From the human T2T-CHM13v2.0 reference genome, Homo sapiens: a stretch of 64,000 nt of DNA. The DNA is taken from the NCBI RefSeq assembly GCF_009914755.1, contig NC_060925.1; one strand, written 5' to 3'. This document shows, piece after piece, positions 4,895 through 63,680 of this stretch (positions are counted from its first letter, which is position 1; each line of letters starts with the position of its first letter). The position numbers and the translations under genes are program-made. Under the pieces are notes generated by a model. It was given only the letters and a program-made list of their open reading frames with translations, had not been told where the DNA came from and ran no database searches.

Positions 4895-6323
4895 TCAGTG
4901 ATGGGGAGACATTCTGAAGTATGCATCCTTTTTCAAACATCATAGAGTGTACCTACAGGAACCTAGGTGGCATAGCCTGCAGCTATACACCTAGGCTGTA
5001 GAGTACAGCCTATTGTGTCTAATTAGGCTATAAACCCGTGCAGCATTTTACTGTACTTAATACTGTAGGCAGTTGTAACACAGTGGTAAATATTTGTGTC
5101 TAAACATAGAAATCTAAACAATCTAAACAGAAAAGGTACAATAAAAATATAGCATACAAGATTAAAAATGGTACGTACCATGTATAGAGCACTTACCATG
5201 AATGGAGCTTGCAGGACTGGCAGTTGCTGTAGGTGAGTCAGTGAGTGAGTGGCGAGTGATATTACTGTACACTACTGTGGACTCTATACTACACTGTGGG
5301 TACACTAAATTTGTTAAAAAAAAAAAAACAAATTTTTCTTCAATAATAAATTAACCTCAACTTACTATAATTTTTTGACTCTTATAATAACATTTAGCTT
5401 ACAACACAAACACATTGTACATCTGCACAGAAGTATTTCTTTTTTTGTTTGTTTTTTTGAGACAAGGTCTGTGTCACCCAGGCTGGAGTGCAGTGGCACA
5501 TACAGCTCACTACCTCGAACTCCTGAGCTCAAGCCATTGTCCAGCCTCAGCTTCCCAAGTAGCTAGGACTACAGGCACTTGCTACCATGCCCACCTAATT
5601 TTTTATTTTTTTGTAGAGATGATGTCTTGTTCTCTTGCCCAGGCTGGTCTCAAATTCCTGGCCTCAAGCAGCCCTTTCACCTCAGCCTCCCAAAGTGCTG
5701 GGATTATGAGCATGAACACCATGTCTGGCCTTTTCTTTTGTAACGTTTTTCTGTTTTTTAATTTTTTAATTTTTTTTTAACTTTTTAAACTTTTTTGTTA
5801 AAAACTAAGATGCAAACACACACATTAGGCTAGGCCTACGCAGGGCTAGGATCATCAATATACTTTCATCTACCTCCACATCCTGTCCCACTGGGAGGTC
5901 TTCAGGGGCAGTAACACATACAGAGCTGTCATGTCCTATGATAACAATGCCTTCTTCTGGAATACCCGCTAAAGGATCTACCTGAAGCTGTTTTATAAGT
6001 TTTAAGTAAAAAGAGTACACTCTAAAATAACCAGAAAATGTATAGTAAATACATAAACTAGTAACATAATTCTTTTTATCAGTATCAGATATTATGTACT
6101 GTATGTAACTGTATGTACTGAACTGTTAGGACTGTAGGTGTAGTAGGTTTGTTTATATTTAATACTAGCACCAGCAAAAACACTTGAGTCATATGTTCTA
6201 TGATATTAGAACAGCTATGATGTCACTAGGTGATAGGAATTTTTCAGCTTCCTTATGATCTTATGGGACCATCAATATATATGTGGTCTGTTGTTGACTA
6301 AAATGTCATGCAGCACATGACTG
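4895..6323 (-). mobile_element. Tigger3/MER7-type TcMar DNA transposon relic, split by an antisense Alu at ~5436-5730
   Basis: The right end read on the minus strand is TA-CAGTCATGTGCTGCAT...GGTCCCATAAGAT, matching the Tigger3 terminus as recalled; left boundary approximate. Confidence 0.7.
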
Positions 6324-11832: not shown

Positions 11833-12069
11833 ATTCTCTCCCAGCCTAACCTGGTCCCTCCATTGGTAAGAGCCCCACATACTAACACCTTCCCAGCGCC
11901 TGTTCAGAGGCCACCAATGGCACTGGCCAGTCAGATGCCTCCTCCGCTGACCACAGGCCTCATGAGCCATGCTCGTTTGCCACATGTAGCCAGGGGTCCT
12001 TGTGGATCACTATCTGGAGTCAGAGGTAATCAGGCCCAGGCTGCGTTGAAGGCTGAACAAGACATGAAG
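11833..12069 (+). CDS. PRRC2C: PRRC2C symmetric (phase 0-0) 79-aa exon, probably an alternative cassette
   Basis: Long U-tract then CTCAG| acceptor, ILSQPNLVPPLVRAPHT...KAEQDMK, donor AAG|GTTAGT; 237 nt, so skipping keeps the frame. Confidence 0.88.
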
Positions 12070-14050
12070 GTTAGTACAGTGTTAACAGCCAACAGATCAA
12101 GAATCTGTCTCTGAACCATGTCTTAAAATGCCTCTGGACCCATAACTGTATATCCAGGCATTCATTGTCTTAGCAGACTTAACCAAGCTAACTACTTTTA
12201 TTCATTCCCCCTTTTTTTTCTTTTTTTTCCCCCATTCCCATTCCTTTCATCTTTTTTTTCTTTTTGTTTCTTTTTCTTTTTCTTTTTTTTTGCAACTGTA
12301 GTCAGGAAATGAATTAATGTCTTAAACTGTGGCCAAATGAATTGTTATCAAATAAATATTTGAGGGAGATCTGAGTTTAGATGCACACTTTTTTTTGGAA
12401 TAGCAAAGAAGTAATATCAATTATTATAGACTTCCCCATTTTCTTTCTTTTTTTTTTTTTTTTTAATATATATTTTCTTCCCCCCTTTCCCCTGACTCTC
12501 CTCCTCCCAGCAGCTTAAAATGTAAATCATGGTTATATGAAAACTCTGGAATGGGTAAGATGTGTTACTATCTTAGTACTTTTTTCCATTATGAGTCATC
12601 AAAGTACAGTTTTCTTCTCAAACTGTTTTCATACCCTTATTGGCCTACCACATGAGGTGGTTGTATTCCACAGTGGATTGTGCAGTTATAGATGAAGAAC
12701 TCAGAAAAGCACTTTGGGATCCTTCATGATGAAAGGCACTGATAAACATGAGGTTTGCTAATGCAGAAAGAGTGCCTTTAGGAGTCTGTGTGGGGACAGT
12801 TTTGTAGCATAAACCTTACATGTCTGCCAGTACAGCCAGTTGAATCCGTTTATTTCTATATTTACTTTAGGCTTGACTTTCAGGGATCTTAGTAATTTTT
12901 GCCTGTTTTGTCACTACATATGTCATCAGATCAGACTAGAACAAAGAAAAGCTTACTGCTTTCAAACAGGGAAATGTGCATAGTAATGCTTTACTCTGAA
13001 TTAGAAACATGTTTATGATAATCCTATTAGAAAATTTGATTGATTGATTAAAGTGTCTTTTTGGGTCGACATCCCTAGTGTTTCTGATCCTGAGTAATCA
13101 AATTTAAAGACTACCCAGCAGCAAAACTTTTATTAAATAATTATCTACTTTTATTAAGGCTGTATGCCTAGGATTTCCATCTGTTTGTTATAATTAGAAA
13201 TACCAGTGTGAGTAAAAATCTTAGGAAGTTATTTGGCCTTGGATTCCAGTTCTACTCCTGGCTCCTTGGCTCTTGATTTTCGCATATTCCCATGTTGGAA
13301 ATAACATTAGAGCTTAATAGTAGTAATGGGGTGGGAGAGGGTACAAACTTCTTGAAAATTGCTTCAGATCTTTGGATAGTACAGGTTACCTATAGAACAT
13401 AAAGCATTTTTTTAATATGCAAGAAGGATGGAAACTTAAGTTTTAATTGTGAATGTTACAGTGGTAAAATTTACAGATTTGACGTAAGTATATTTTTGGG
13501 GGCACATAGTCAAAACTAAGAAATTATTTACCAGCTCAGAATGTGGTAGGAGCTATCAGAACTTAGTGATCAAGTGAAGTCGTAGTTACTAATTTCTGAT
13601 GCTCTTCCCCTGCAGAAGAGAGCTGTGGGAAGAGGACTCAGCCACAAGACATTTGGTCCTAGGTGTTGGTAATGCCACAATATAAGTGCTTCCTTTTCAT
13701 TTTATTGTAGACCACATATTGATAACTAGAAGTTTTAAGTGTTACATGTATGTTTTTAGATTTGCAAGCAGGTTCCCTAAATAAAATTTAATATGAGAGG
13801 GCAGACCTTGAAAAGGTGGTGGGAGGTGGTCCTGTGGTTTTTTTTTTTTTTTTAAATCACATGAAATATTTCAAAAATAGGAAGAAATCTATTCATTAAA
13901 AGCTCAAAGATCAATGAGGTACTTTTGGCTTTGGCCAAACCAGTGTGGGGAAAACTGATTTGTGATTGGTAAAAGAATTTGAACCAAGATTGATTTGACA
14001 GGCTTTGGTAATGCTGCAGTATTTTCAGTTGTTCTTTCTCATTTTTTAAG

Positions 14051-14311
14051 GCAAAGCAGAGAGCAGAGGTTCTTCAGTCCACGCAACGGTTCTTCTCTGA
14101 ACAGCAACAGAGCAAACAGATAGGAGGAGGCAAAGCCCAGAAAGTGGACAGTGATTCAAGTAAACCTCCTGAAACACTGACCGACCCTCCTGGGGTCTGT
14201 CAGGAAAAAGTAGAAGAAAAGCCACCCCCTGCACCCTCCATAGCCACCAAACCTGTTAGAACTGGACCAATCAAACCTCAGGCGATCAAAACCGAAGAAA
14301 CAAAATCTTAA
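14051..14311 (+). CDS. PRRC2C: PRRC2C terminal coding exon
   Basis: TTTTTAAG| acceptor, AKQRAEVLQSTQRFFSEQQQ...IKPQAIKTEETKS, stop TAA 14309-14311. Confidence 0.95.
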   Translation, partial: AKQRAEVLQSTQRFFSEQQQSKQIGGGKAQKVDSDSSKPPETLTDPPGVCQEKVEEKPPPAPSIATKPVRTGPIKPQAIKTEETKS

Positions 14312-15718
14312 AGGCTATGGTTTATTGCAGGGGATTGGGAGGGGGGCGGGAAAACATGGAGAATTAAGTCAGATAATGCTGGCAGCCAAAGGGGCAAAAT
14401 GGCCTGTGACATTATCCTGTTCAGAGCTTGGAGATGTACAAGGGACATAGGAGCAATTTACACTGACACACAGCTGCTGTACCAGTGAAAACGAGGCTTT
14501 GCAAGCTTGTACCTACTATATAACATGTGCTTGGTTGATGGCCATGCATCTTCAGTCAGAATTTATATATAAATGTATGCACCCATTTTTTTGAGTGCAT
14601 ATAATTTAGACCTAAAAATCCTTATGATTAGATGAAACACCAAAAATATAAGGAAAATAACACAGCAGAGGAATAGCTCAGCCTGAACAGTGTGATGGTC
14701 CCAGCTACTACATCAGATGCGGTTTTTTTGCTCCCTTATGTTCTTCGGATATGGTTATGGCATTTGTAGGCTTGGAGGTAAAGAACTGAAGATAACTGGT
14801 GCTGGATAGAGGAGCCTTATTTTTTATTATGGCAGCTTGCTATTTTTATAACATGGTGATTGAGTTGAACACAATCAAAGTACAGTAGTAACTGATGTCC
14901 CCTTCTTCCTGGATGAATGAGCAGATAAATATTGATGTCAGCATCCTTGAACCATATCAAAGTGAGCAGTGTTTGGCTACTGCTTCTATTTGAAATGGTG
15001 CTGTGTTTTGGTTGTGGTCTGAAGCTTTGAAGCGCTACTTAGCATCTCCTTTCTTCCATGGAGCTCTCACGATTCAAACATGACAGATTTGGTAAAATGC
15101 TGGTTAGGTTGAGTCTTCCTTGCCCCCACTCAGTCATCTTTGTATGAATCCCATGATTTGGGGGTTTTTTTCTTTTTTTTTTTATACCAGTTTTTAGCTG
15201 GTGTTTATGAAGAACAGTGAGTACCTAGAACTGTGCCACTAATTAAAGGAAATCCTAAGAAGGTGCATTTCTTTACAGAGCTGTGTCATGCCATCCTTTG
15301 GGCCCTCTGCTGGAAAAGTAGAATCAAGTCTCAAATAATGCCTTTTTAATTGTATCCTCTAGTATTATAGATATAGGACAGTACTGTATCATACCTCTGT
15401 GAATGTAAAATATCTTGTACCTGCTTTATGATACGTAGTAGTGACCGTGCTTTATCAGAGCTGTTTTTAATGATGTTATTCTAGAATGTTTTCTTTCCAG
15501 ATGATGATTCAGAAGCTAATTTTAAAAAACGGTGCCAGGTACCACAACAGTAACAGAACTTTGCAATTTTCTGGGGTTTTGTTTTTTACCTTTTTCCCCC
15601 CTTTTTTTTAAATGGAGTGTGCTGGATGTCTCTATAATTTTATTCAGATGACTGCAGAACCTGGAAAAGCTGTTGCTGCTATTGATGCATAACATACTGC
15701 TATTGGTCTTTTTATATA

Positions 15719-37896: not shown

Positions 37897-39003
<1,107 letters not shown>

Positions 39004-39229
39004 TCAAATAAATAAATAACAACAACAACAACAAAACAGAGATGAGGGAGACAGCTGCTGGAACAGGTTTGAAGGAGGTGATCAGGAGTTCAGTCTTGGA
39101 CATGTCGAGTTTACATGTTTATTGTTTATATTGAGGTGTCAAGTCAGCAGCTGATATATTGGTTGAGTTCAGGAGAGAGATCTGGGCTGGAGAGACAGAT
39201 TGATGAATGTCATATCCTATAGATGGCAT

Positions 39230-42656: not shown

Positions 42657-43726
42657 TGAGGACTGAACTCTGATTTTTATGCTGCCCAAATTCCTATCTA
42701 AGGTGTCTGGGGCATCGTGTCCTACAAATCATAAATTCTCATCAGATGGGTTTTATTTAACATTAATCGTGACTTACTCTCCAACCTGACTCTGGCATAA
42801 TATTATGAGACAAGAAAGAAAATCAAAATATTTTACCCCAAAACATGTTTCTTTGCCATATTTTGAAATGGTCATGCAAAGCTGTTCTTTTTGGGGGCAA
42901 ATTTGCATCTGTAAAGAATCTCAATTAACATAGCTAGATATTTTTCTTCCAGACCCTCCCAATCCTAAAGAGATTAACTGAGATCTGAATAGGAAACATT
43001 TGTCATCTATTGTCTCTAAGGGCAGCCACTATAAGACTTTGAAAGAACTTTGGCCTCCACCATCTTTTATCTTAACCTGAACATTCCCTTTCCATCAATC
43101 CCAGGTCCTTAGAAAACTCAACCAATTGTAAAAAAGAAAAATTTTAAATTCACCTGTAGCCTGGAAGCTCCCCCTCCACTGCACTTTGAGTTGTCCTGTC
43201 TTTCTGGGCAAACCAATGTATTTCTTTCTTTTTCTTTCTTTTTTTTTTTTTTTTTGAGACGGAGTCTCGTTCTGTTGCCAAGCTGGAGTGCAGTGGCGAT
43301 CTTGGCTCACTGCAACCTCTGACTCCCGGGTTCAAGCGATTCTCCTGCCTCAGCCTCCCGAGTAGCTGGGATTACAGGCGAGTGCCACCACGCCGGGCTA
43401 ATTTTTGTATTTTTAGTAGAGACGGGGTTTCACCTTGTTGGCCAGGATGGTCTCGATCTCCTGACCTCGTGATCTGCCCGCCTCGGCCTCCCAAAGTGCT
43501 GGGATTACAGGCACGAGCCACCGTGCCCGGCCTACCAATGTATTTCTTAAATGTATTTGACTGATGTCTCATGCCTCTCTAAAATGTATAAAACCAAGCT
43601 GCACCCCGACCAACTTGGGCACGTGTTCTCAGGACCTCCTGAGGGCTTTGTCACAGGTCATGGTCACTCATATTTGGTTCAGAATCTCTTCAAATATTTT
43701 ACAGAGTTTGACTGTTTTCGTTGACA
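42657..43726 (+). mobile_element. MER4-group (MER4D/E-like) solo LTR with an antisense Alu inside (43225-43532)
   Basis: TGAGGACT...TTGACA with 4-bp TSD AAGG; Alu TSD ACCAATGTATTTCTT. Confidence 0.78.
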
Positions 43727-43772
43727 AAGGGAAATAGCTGTATTTATCTACGTATATATAGACCTTGTGTAG

Positions 43773-45670
<1,898 letters not shown>

Positions 45671-51422: not shown

Positions 51423-52123
51423 GTATGACTCCATTTTAATGCCACTGATAAAGGCATACCCGAGACTGGGAAGAATAAGAGGTTTCATTGGACTTACAGT
51501 TCTACATGATTCTGAGGGGAGTCCTCAGAATCATGGCGGAGTGTAAAAGGCACCTCTTACATGGTGGCAGCAAGAGAAAATGAGGAAGATGCAAAAGCAG
51601 AAACCCCTAATAAAACCATCAGATCTCATGAGACTTATTCACTACCATGAGAACAGTATGAGGGAAGCTGTCCCCGTGATTCAAATTATCTCTCACCAGG
51701 TTCCTCCCACAATATGTGGGAATTATGGGAATATAATTCAAGTTGAGATTTGGGTGAGGACACAACCAAAACATATCGTTCCATCCCTGGCCCCTCAAAA
51801 TCTCATGTCCTCACATTTCAAAATTAATAATGCCTTCCCAGCAGTCCCCCAAAGTCTTAACTCATTTCAGCATTAACCTAAAAGTCCATGGTCCAAAGTC
51901 TCATCTGAGACAAGGCAAGTCCCTTCCACCTATGAGTCTGTAAAATCAAAAGCAAGCTAGTTACTTCCTGGATACAGGAGGGTACAGGTATTTTGTAAAT
52001 ACAGCCATTCCAAATAAGAGAAACTGGCCAAAACAAAGGGGTTACAGGGCCCATGCAAGTCTGAAATCCAGCTGGGCAGTTCAAATTTTAAAGCTCCAAA
52101 ATGATCTCCTTTGACTCCAGGTC
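51423..52123 (-). mobile_element. THE1 LTR plus adjoining THE1-internal fragment, within an L2 relic (~51300-53650) that also holds Alus
   Basis: GATAAAGGCATACCCGAGACTGGG LTR motif continuing into internal-type sequence; abrupt end at TTTGACTCCAGGTC. Confidence 0.75.

Positions 52124-60984: not shown

Positions 60985-63680
<2,696 letters not shown>

What the first reader, a model, noticed from the sequence alone, without database searches (positions are those of the whole stretch)
13532..13668. pri-miRNA-like hairpin burying the branch point and acceptor of a candidate PRRC2C exon
Seen: a ~94-nt stem-loop in the last intron. Paired by eye: CAGCTC/GAGCTG (13532-37 with 13620-25), TGTGG/CTGCA, AGGAGC/GCTCTT, ATCAGAA/TTCTGAT and TTAGTGAT/GTTACTAA, closing a 14-nt loop (13571-84); about 32 bp including G-U pairs. 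The 3' arm carries a near-consensus branch point TACTAAT (13587-93), the pyrimidine tract and CTGCAG| (13615). Established: stems of this size are Drosha/DGCR8 and ADAR substrates, and hairpins overlapping splice sites can compete with splicing. Inference: a structure-gated switch controls an alternative PRRC2C C-terminus, or this is a splice-site-overlapping small-RNA precursor. This is the best candidate for an under-described system in the window.
Basis: partly seen in the sequence, partly recalled or inferred. Interest (0 to 1): 0.8.

Follow-up and report, generated by a model that had tools for sequence, protein, structure and literature searches.

The report
Hairpin over an alternative PRRC2C acceptor
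A predicted RNA fold does cover the branch point and pyrimidine tract of a known, weak alternative exon near the end of human PRRC2C, but it does not look like a microRNA precursor and nothing yet shows it is more than an ordinary local fold.

Summary
The isolated 94 nt fold as drawn (-35.5 kcal/mol, z -4.75). Only the upper 15 bp (13555-13600, holding both branch-point candidates) survive in wider context, at P>=0.9. The lower stems fall to P 0.04-0.16 once the exon is transcribed, because the pyrimidine tract 13602-09 then pairs with an exonic purine run 13627-34. So there are two adjacent small hairpins, not one 32-bp pri-miRNA-like stem.

The exon 13616-13668 is annotated. It is 53 nt, has the weakest PRRC2C donor, and shifts the frame to a shorter C-terminus. 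Its acceptor is the most structured of the window's acceptors. Significance is modest: 8 of 300 and 11 of 300 flank shuffles do as well. Equal or stronger hairpins occur every few kb.

There is no Rfam match and no pri-miRNA motif in register, and PRRC2C is absent from one catalogue of splicing-derived hairpins. Conservation, junction reads and small-RNA reads could not be tested.

Best reading: structure that damps a weak acceptor (0.4). Chance is nearly as likely. Small-RNA precursor is unlikely.

The parts
13555..13600 (+). Core hairpin: 7 bp + 1x1 mismatch + 8 bp, closing a 14-nt loop (13571-84).
   Evidence: P 0.90-0.98 in every context and at every 3' end tried. Alone it folds at -13.3 kcal/mol, z -2.92, with 1 of 200 shuffles as good.
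13587..13593 (+). Branch-point candidate TACTAAT (A at 13592, 23 nt before the AG), paired in the 3' arm of the core hairpin.
   Evidence: Sequence. Per-base P(unpaired) is 0.12-0.27 for 13587-92. The 13587-13600 region is as paired in 11 of 300 flank shuffles. The branch-point consensus is recalled, not tested.
13596..13600 (+). Second branch-point-like pentamer CTGAT (A at 13599, 16 nt before the AG), also inside the core hairpin.
   Evidence: Sequence. P(unpaired) is 0.00-0.08.
13602..13609 (+). Pyrimidine-tract segment CTCTTCCC. It pairs either with the upstream purines at 13548-53 or with the exonic purines at 13627-34.
   Evidence: P(H3)+P(ALT) is about 1 in all six wider contexts. Mean P(unpaired) of 13596-13615 is 0.173.
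13548..13553 (+).
   Evidence: P 0.10-0.52 in wider contexts and 0.73-0.97 before the exon is transcribed.
13627..13634 (+). Exonic purine run GGGAAGAG, perfectly complementary to the pyrimidine-tract segment. It forms a second hairpin with the acceptor AG in or near its loop.
   Evidence: Inverted repeat I10, 8 nt, 100% complementary. P 0.50-0.97 once transcribed. 13602-13634 alone folds at -15.2 kcal/mol, z -2.96, with 2 of 200 shuffles as good.
13532..13546 (+). These are context-dependent and mostly not formed.
   Evidence: P 0.04-0.21 in wider contexts. They are high only when the transcript ends at about 13626.
13610..13625 (+). 3' halves of the lower helices, spanning CTGCAG and the first 10 nt of the exon.
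13616..13668 (+). Annotated 53-nt alternative exon. Inclusion shifts the frame.
   Evidence: Hub gene table. AG before and GTAATG after; 53 nt = 17 codons + 2 nt.
13666..13674 (+). Donor TTG|GTAATG. It matches 5 of 9 positions of the consensus, the lowest of the 10 PRRC2C donors compared.
   Evidence: The consensus string is recalled.
14052..14123 (+). Alternative-frame tail in the last exon: 23 codons, then a stop at 14121-23. It replaces the 86 canonical residues.
   Evidence: P0001. The stop lies in the last exon, so no nonsense-mediated decay is expected (inference).

Best explanation
This is a weak, annotated alternative exon of PRRC2C whose acceptor signals are tied up in local RNA structure. 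A stable 15-bp hairpin (13555-13600) holds both branch-point candidates in its 3' arm. The pyrimidine tract (13602-09) is paired nearly all the time with one of two purine runs. One run lies upstream (13548-53) and is favoured while only the intron has been made. The other lies in the exon (13627-34) and is favoured once the exon is made.

Inference: this lowers access for U2 snRNP and U2AF, and together with a poor donor it keeps the 53-nt exon a minor choice. Inclusion exchanges the last 86 residues for 17 + 1 + 23 residues in another frame. The fold is not a Microprocessor substrate. Shown here: the pairs, their predicted robustness, and the exon and its frame. Inferred: any effect on splicing.
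For: - Predicted access, real acceptors. The 20 nt before 13616 have mean P(unpaired) 0.173. This is the lowest of 16 listed exon starts; the others range 0.296-0.671, and two of the 16 have no AG before them.
- Predicted access, background. That value lies at the 0.2 percentile of all + strand 20-mers. It is matched by 2 of 374 acceptor-like sites, itself included.
- Last 74 intron nt. They fold at -26.4 kcal/mol against -3.9 to -15.1 for 11 other real acceptors. Among acceptor-like sites, 11 of 372 are as stable, and 1 of 106 GC-matched sites (itself).
- Shuffled flanks. They bury the tract as well in 8 of 300 trials and the branch-point region in 11 of 300.
- Robustness. The core hairpin has P>=0.9 in all contexts, and the tract is paired by one partner or the other with summed P about 1.
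- Strand. The sense strand folds better than the antisense (-35.5, z -4.75 against -26.2, z -2.31), because 5 pairs are G-U.
- Weak donor. 5 of 9 consensus positions, the lowest of the 10 PRRC2C donors compared.
- Precedent. A Py-tract paired with a GA-rich exon run blocks U2AF65 at RELL2 exon 3, where a second GA-rich run can substitute (PMC7005744, passages). A stem-loop against U2AF65 acts at cTNT exon 5 (review PMC7404189, passages).
Against: - All structure evidence is thermodynamic prediction on naked RNA. No probing data were available.
- The shuffle tests give only about 0.03-0.04. The site was picked by eye from 64 kb holding about 12-14 acceptors, so chance is not excluded.
- Hairpins as stable or more stable occur every few kb in the window.
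- The core hairpin is AU-rich and only -13.3 kcal/mol, within reach of helicases.
- Conservation and covariation could not be tested, because no vertebrate genomes are held.
- No paper found mentions this exon or hairpin.
- PRRC2C is absent from the two supplementary files held for the ADAR splicing study.
Confidence: 0.4

Rival explanations
1. Chance fold. This is an ordinary local hairpin that happens to sit at a weak alternative acceptor and has no measurable effect on splicing in cells.
For: - 293 of 15,978 windows, and 13 of 3,400 GC-matched windows, are as stable as the 94-mer.
- The hairpin ranks 26th among distinct loci on the scan grid.
- Three other hairpins in the window have z -5.0 to -7.6.
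- In 201-nt context the z-score is -1.82.
- The flank-shuffle tests give 8 of 300 and 11 of 300. After allowing for selection among about a dozen acceptors, this is not significant.
- 5 of 372 acceptor-like sites show the same 'single hairpin ending at AG' geometry.
Against: - It is the single most structured of the real acceptors in the window by three measures.
- It belongs to the only cassette-type alternative PRRC2C exon listed by the hub table for this window.
- Two independent purine partners flank the tract.
Confidence: 0.42
2. 5'-tailed mirtron or splicing-derived hairpin RNA. When the acceptor at 13616 is used, the excised 1,546-nt intron (12070-13615) ends in a 74-nt hairpin (13542-13615). 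After debranching and 5' trimming, this hairpin could be exported and diced.
For: - The 74 nt fold as one hairpin whose 3' end is the acceptor AG with a 1-nt overhang (-26.4 kcal/mol, z -4.30, 0 of 200 shuffles).
- The intron is under 3 kb, the hairpin starts at -74, and both notional 22-mers begin with U. This fits the features given in PMC4556696 (passages).
Against: - The bottom helix needed for that geometry has P 0.04-0.17 in context.
- GC is 0.43, with 7 G of 22 in the 5p arm and 8 C of 22 in the 3p arm, whereas the class is described as GC-rich.
- The same geometry appears at 5 of 372 acceptor-like sites by chance.
- PRRC2C has 0 occurrences in the 7 supplementary tables of PMC10508058, which list loci by gene name.
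- The mirtron tables of PMC4556696 and PMC3431481 could not be opened.
Confidence: 0.05
3. Microprocessor substrate. Either a splice-site-overlapping miRNA (as miR-34b) or a Drosha-bound pre-miRNA-like element that changes exon use (as eIF4H exon 5).
For: - The isolated 94-mer has about 32 bp and a 14-nt loop.
- As in SO-miR-34b, a branch point lies in the hairpin and a purine-rich stretch follows in the exon (PMC3794580, abstract).
- Non-miRNA Drosha substrates lack the miRNA motifs (PMC10954719, passages), so the missing motifs do not exclude binding.
Against: - The lower stem, where Drosha would sit, is not stable in context (P 0.04-0.21).
- Arm lengths are 39/41 or 29/30 nt.
- Basal UG and CNNC are missing in 3 of 3 registers, and a GUG fits only 1 of 3 registers and sits inside the stem.
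- There is no Rfam hit on the hairpin at E<=10 and none at gathering score in the whole window apart from two SRP/Alu-type matches.
- Drosha knockdown did not change inclusion of SO-miRNA exons in coding genes (PMC6097652, abstract).
Confidence: 0.03
4. dsRNA-binding-protein switch of the RELL2 type. ADAR, or another dsRBP or helicase such as DHX9, binds or unwinds the pyrimidine-tract:purine duplex and thereby sets inclusion, with or without editing.
For: The predicted 8-bp perfect duplex between tract and exonic GA-rich run, plus a second purine partner, mirrors the RELL2 arrangement (PMC7005744 passages). That paper proposes the mechanism is common.
Against: - The duplexes are short (8 bp and 6 bp).
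- PRRC2C has 0 occurrences in that paper's main text and in its 2 held supplementary files.
- The only PRRC2C A-to-G variant met in the literature search is a coding site far from here (PMC8632122, passage).
- No editing or CLIP data could be reached.
Confidence: 0.07

Closest known systems
RELL2 exon 3: Py-tract paired with GA-rich exon sequence, bound by ADAR2, blocking U2AF65 (PMC7005744; passages read)
   Same: The pyrimidine tract of a cassette exon is predicted to pair with a GA-rich run inside the same exon. A second purine run can take over the pairing. The acceptor lies between the two strands.
   Different: Here one of the two partners is intronic and upstream. The branch point is additionally locked in a separate 15-bp hairpin. 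No protein binding, editing or splicing effect has been shown, and PRRC2C is not in that study's text or held tables.
cTNT exon 5: mutually exclusive stem-loop or single strand at the 3' end of intron 4, read by MBNL1 or U2AF65 (Warf 2009, as described in review PMC7404189; passage read)
   Same: A stem-loop over the 3' splice-site region competes with U2AF65 binding to the single-stranded tract.
   Different: No MBNL-type motif or protein partner has been identified here, and the original paper was not read.
Splice-site-overlapping miRNAs, e.g. miR-34b (PMC3794580 abstract; PMC6097652 abstract)
   Same: A hairpin overlaps a 3' splice site, the branch point lies inside the hairpin, and a purine-rich exon segment lies downstream.
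   Different: There is no annotated or Rfam-matching miRNA, the lower stem is unstable in context, and no UG or CNNC motif is in register.
5'-tailed mirtrons (PMC4556696, passages)
   Same: The hairpin can be drawn to end exactly at the acceptor AG. The host intron is under 3 kb, and both notional arms start with U.
   Different: GC content is low, the terminal helix is weak in context, no read evidence exists, and the locus is absent from one catalogue.
Drosha-promoted splicing of the pre-miRNA-like eIF4H exon 5 (PMC4006729; only the search listing and the start of the abstract seen)
   Same: A hairpin is associated with an alternative exon of a protein-coding gene.
   Different: Going by that paper's title, the exon itself is the pre-miRNA-like element there. 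Here the hairpin is mostly intronic and covers the acceptor. No Drosha evidence exists.

Membership tests
canonical pri-miRNA (Drosha/DGCR8 substrate) | One continuous stem of about 35 bp between a basal and an apical single-strand junction (figure recalled from Fang & Bartel 2015, not read here) | tested here: not met
   Arms are 39/41 nt with 4x5 and 1x3 internal loops, or 29/30 nt without the outer helix. The lower helices have P 0.04-0.21 in wider contexts.
canonical pri-miRNA (Drosha/DGCR8 substrate) | At least one of basal UG, apical UGU/GUG, CNNC or mGHG in register (motif list from PMC10954719; positions recalled) | tested here: inconclusive
   UG and CNNC are absent in 3 of 3 registers. 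A GUG fits 1 of 3 registers but lies inside the stem. mGHG was not tested.
canonical pri-miRNA (Drosha/DGCR8 substrate) | Match to a curated miRNA family | tested here: not met
   Rfam 15 at E<=10 over 12000-15000 gives 3 weak hits, none on 13532-13625. At gathering score the whole window gives only 2 Metazoa_SRP hits. miRBase and MirGeneDB are not available.
canonical pri-miRNA (Drosha/DGCR8 substrate) | Small-RNA duplex reads with 2-nt offsets; dependence on Microprocessor | not testable with these tools
   No read data are held.
5'-tailed mirtron | [quoted passage not shown] | tested here: inconclusive
   This is met for the isolated 74-mer 13542-13615. The terminal helix 13542-46/13610-14 has P 0.04-0.17 in context.
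5'-tailed mirtron | Host intron mostly under 3 kb (PMC4556696) | tested here: met
   12070-13615 is 1,546 nt (coordinates from the hub table).
5'-tailed mirtron | G-rich 5p arm, C-rich 3p arm, high GC (PMC4556696) | tested here: inconclusive
   5p has 7 G of 22, 3p has 8 C of 22, and hairpin GC is 0.43. No numeric threshold was seen in the passages.
5'-tailed mirtron | Confident evidence of dicing into a small-RNA duplex | not testable with these tools
   No read data are held. PRRC2C has 0 occurrences in 7 tables of PMC10508058.
structure-occluded 3' splice site (RELL2 / cTNT kind) | Pyrimidine tract and/or branch point base-paired in a local structure | tested here: met
   Met in prediction only.
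structure-occluded 3' splice site (RELL2 / cTNT kind) | Breaking the pairs raises exon use and compensatory changes restore it; U2AF65 or U2 binding is reduced by the structure | not testable with these tools
   This needs minigene and binding assays.
conserved structured RNA element | Conservation with covariation across species | not testable with these tools
   No vertebrate genomes are held. The own-genome search finds a single copy.

The most novel reading that the evidence does not exclude
The acceptor of the frame-shifting PRRC2C exon is held by a two-partner clamp. The branch point is locked in a stable hairpin. The pyrimidine tract toggles between an intronic and an exonic purine partner, depending on how far transcription has gone. 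A helicase, a dsRNA-binding protein (ADAR, DHX9 or Drosha) or the elongation rate then decides which C-terminus of this translation and stress-granule factor is made. Use of the acceptor might also release a 74-nt hairpin ending at the AG as a splicing-derived small-RNA precursor, which would tie isoform choice to a small RNA.
Probability: 0.08. Interest if true: 0.55.

Novelty: new member of a known kind. Interest (0 to 1): 0.25.

Why it matters
PRRC2C acts in translation initiation and stress granules, according to abstracts listed. A preprint reports that PRRC2C holds a region read in three frames, with peptide support for all three (10.64898/2026.05.28.727796, section 22). The passages seen do not say which exon. 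The 53-nt exon studied here is one way to reach a second frame of the last exon.

If the predicted structure really limits this acceptor, it would give a simple, mutable handle for changing the ratio of C-terminal isoforms, for example with antisense oligonucleotides against the stems. It would also add one more case to the known class of structure-masked 3' splice sites. If it does not, the finding is an ordinary intronic fold next to an already annotated exon.

Tried and rejected
- Rfam at E<=10 over 12000-15000, and at gathering score over the whole window: nothing on the hairpin.
- Repeat or transposon origin: the own-genome DNA search with 221 nt and with 381 nt (E<=10) finds only the locus itself. 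The tool skips very common words, and old diverged repeats could be missed. window.fa carries no soft-masking.
- Paralogue check: the canonical last-exon peptide finds only itself and two partial copies on contigs C23 and C24. It does not find PRRC2A or PRRC2B, so no comparison of paralogous last introns was possible.
- Pfam on the last two canonical coding exons: 0 families. What the exon removes has no named domain.
- Literature:
  - PRRC2C + alternative splicing + C-terminal: 25 papers, one relevant preprint.
  - PRRC2C + pri-miRNA: 4 papers, none relevant by title or abstract.
  - Phrase 'PRRC2C exon': 0 papers.
  - PRRC2C + mirtron: 1 paper, synteny only.
  - PRRC2C + A-to-I + intron: 2 papers, none on this site.
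  - One search was badly framed and returned nothing about PRRC2C.
They may list or exclude this locus as a mirtron.
- bioRxiv supplements are closed, so which PRRC2C exon is 'triple coding' is unknown to me.
- Complex prediction, structure prediction and the large protein searches were not relevant and were not used.

Full report
**The observation**

- The helices are 13532-37/13620-25, 13542-46/13610-14, 13548-53/13601-06, 13555-61/13594-600 and 13563-70/13585-92.
- They close a 14-nt loop at 13571-84 and give 32 pairs, of which 5 are G-U.
- TACTAAT lies at 13587-93 and CTGCAG ends at 13615.

Folded alone, the 94 nt adopt exactly this structure.
- The energy is -35.5 kcal/mol. Shuffles average -21.96 (sd 2.85), so z is -4.75, and 0 of 200 shuffles do as well.
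- The antisense strand folds worse: -26.2 kcal/mol, z -2.31, 6 of 200.

**How special is the hairpin as a hairpin?**

Not very.
- In 201 nt of context the z-score is -1.82, with 6 of 200 shuffles as good.
- A scan of the whole window used 15,978 windows of 94 nt at step 8 on both strands. It gives 293 windows at -35.5 or lower, and 13 of 3,400 GC-matched windows.
- After GC correction the flagged hairpin ranks 26th among distinct loci on that grid.
- Hairpins at 44153-44246, 4929-5022 and 51473-51566 have z -7.55, -7.29 and -5.01.

**What actually folds**

I computed pair probabilities in seven contexts (the isolated 94 nt and six wider ones) and at ten 3' ends that mimic transcription.
- The apical 15 bp (13555-13600) keep P 0.90-0.98 throughout.
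- The two lowest helices are strong only if the RNA ends near 13626. With more sequence they fall to P 0.04-0.21.
- The reason is an 8-nt perfect complement. The tract segment CTCTTCCC (13602-09) pairs with GGGAAGAG in the exon (13627-34, I10), at P 0.50-0.97.
The two probabilities sum to about 1 in all six wider contexts.

The predicted state is therefore two neighbouring small hairpins, not one 32-bp stem.
- The first hairpin is -13.3 kcal/mol, z -2.92.
- The second is -15.2 kcal/mol, z -2.96, with the AG inside it.

**The exon**

The hub's gene table lists 13616-13668 as an exon of other PRRC2C transcripts.
- It is 53 nt, preceded by AG and followed by GTAATG.
- The upstream exon ends on a complete codon. 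Inclusion therefore adds 17 codons and 2 nt, and the last exon is read in another frame for 23 codons up to a stop at 14121-23.
- This replaces 86 canonical residues.
- The stop is in the last exon, so decay is not expected (inference).
- The donor matches 5 of 9 consensus positions. This is the lowest of the 10 PRRC2C donors compared; the others match 6-9.
- Pfam finds no domain in the replaced part.
[quoted passage not shown] It does not say in the text I saw which exon that is.

**Is the acceptor unusually buried?**

Yes in prediction, but only moderately in statistics.
- Local-fold P(unpaired) for the 20 nt before the exon is 0.173. This is the lowest of 16 listed exon starts (the others range 0.296-0.671).
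- That value is at the 0.2 percentile of all 20-mers on the strand, and 2 of 374 acceptor-like sites are as low.
- For the 40 nt before the exon the figures are weaker: the 6.9 percentile, and 4.5% of acceptor-like sites.
- The last 74 nt of the intron fold at -26.4 kcal/mol, against -3.9 to -15.1 at 11 other real acceptors.
- With the tract kept and its flanks dinucleotide-shuffled, 8 of 300 trials bury it as well. For the branch-point region the count is 11 of 300.
- Given that the site was chosen by eye among about a dozen acceptors, chance remains a serious rival.

**Small-RNA readings**

- Rfam gives nothing on the hairpin.
- Arm lengths are 39/41 or 29/30 nt.
- Basal UG and CNNC are missing in all three registers tried, and a GUG fits one register only. 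The motif list comes from PMC10954719; the positions are recalled.
- The geometry fits a 5'-tailed mirtron better than a Drosha substrate:
  - The 74-mer 13542-13615 ends at the AG.
  - The intron is 1,546 nt.
  - Both notional arms begin with U (class features from PMC4556696).
- Against the mirtron reading:
  - The terminal helix is weak in context.
  - GC is 0.43.
  - The same geometry occurs at 5 of 372 acceptor-like sites.
  - PRRC2C is absent from the seven gene-named tables of PMC10508058.

**Comparison with what is known**

- The nearest case is RELL2 exon 3. There a GA-rich exon run pairs with the upstream Py-tract, a second GA-rich run can substitute, and ADAR2 binding blocks U2AF65 (PMC7005744). 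PRRC2C is not named in that paper's text or its two held tables.
- The cTNT exon 5 stem-loop read by MBNL1 or U2AF65 is another case (review PMC7404189).
- SO-miR-34b shares the branch point in the hairpin and a purine-rich exon element (PMC3794580, abstract). For coding genes, however, Drosha depletion did not change inclusion of such exons (PMC6097652, abstract).

**Verdict**

- The pri-miRNA reading is not supported.
- The idea that structure limits a weak, already annotated alternative acceptor is plausible but unproven, and it belongs to a known kind.
- Conservation, usage and in-cell structure are the missing tests and could not be run here.

Noticed in passing
window 4929-5022 (both strands): A near-perfect long palindromic hairpin in an upstream PRRC2C intron. 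It folds at -45.5 kcal/mol, z -7.29 on the minus strand, and -40.0, z -5.11 on the plus strand. It is far more pri-miRNA- or transposon-palindrome-like than the flagged hairpin. There is no Rfam hit at gathering score.
   Followed up: partly
window 44153-44246 (+): The strongest hairpin in the window (-52.2 kcal/mol, z -7.55), with about 30 bp almost perfect. It lies just after the RefSeq silencer (43700-43900) and beside a masked repeat (43830-44145). It looks like an inverted repeat of repeat-derived sequence.
   Followed up: no
window 51473-51566 (+): Another hairpin with a 13-bp perfect apical stem (-38.5 kcal/mol, z -5.01) between MYOCOS and MYOC. Its origin is unknown.
   Followed up: no
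L003 (G000:C24:3226848-3227009, -) and L004 (G000:C23:88333645-88333806, -): Two copies of the coding end of the PRRC2C last exon, 83% identical to residues 33-86 and open for 59 aa, lie on two other contigs. They give identical scores. They may be fragments of a retrocopy in a region shared by the two contigs.
   Followed up: no
window 14051-14123: The start of the last exon holds a short internal near-repeat, so the canonical frame and the alternative frame both read a QRFFS pentapeptide from different nucleotides. The third frame also stays open for only a short run. This may be the 'triple coding' region of the preprint, but that is not established.
   Followed up: partly
window 38859-39007 and 61278-61394 (+): Two Metazoa_SRP matches lie just above the gathering score (71.5 and 71.0 against 70). 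Each spans about 120-150 nt of a 299-position model, as expected of Alu-type repeats rather than SRP RNA genes.
   Followed up: no
window 13839-13854: A run of 16 T lies about 170 nt after the alternative exon. It underlies a meaningless weak mir-308 match (E 4.4).
   Followed up: no
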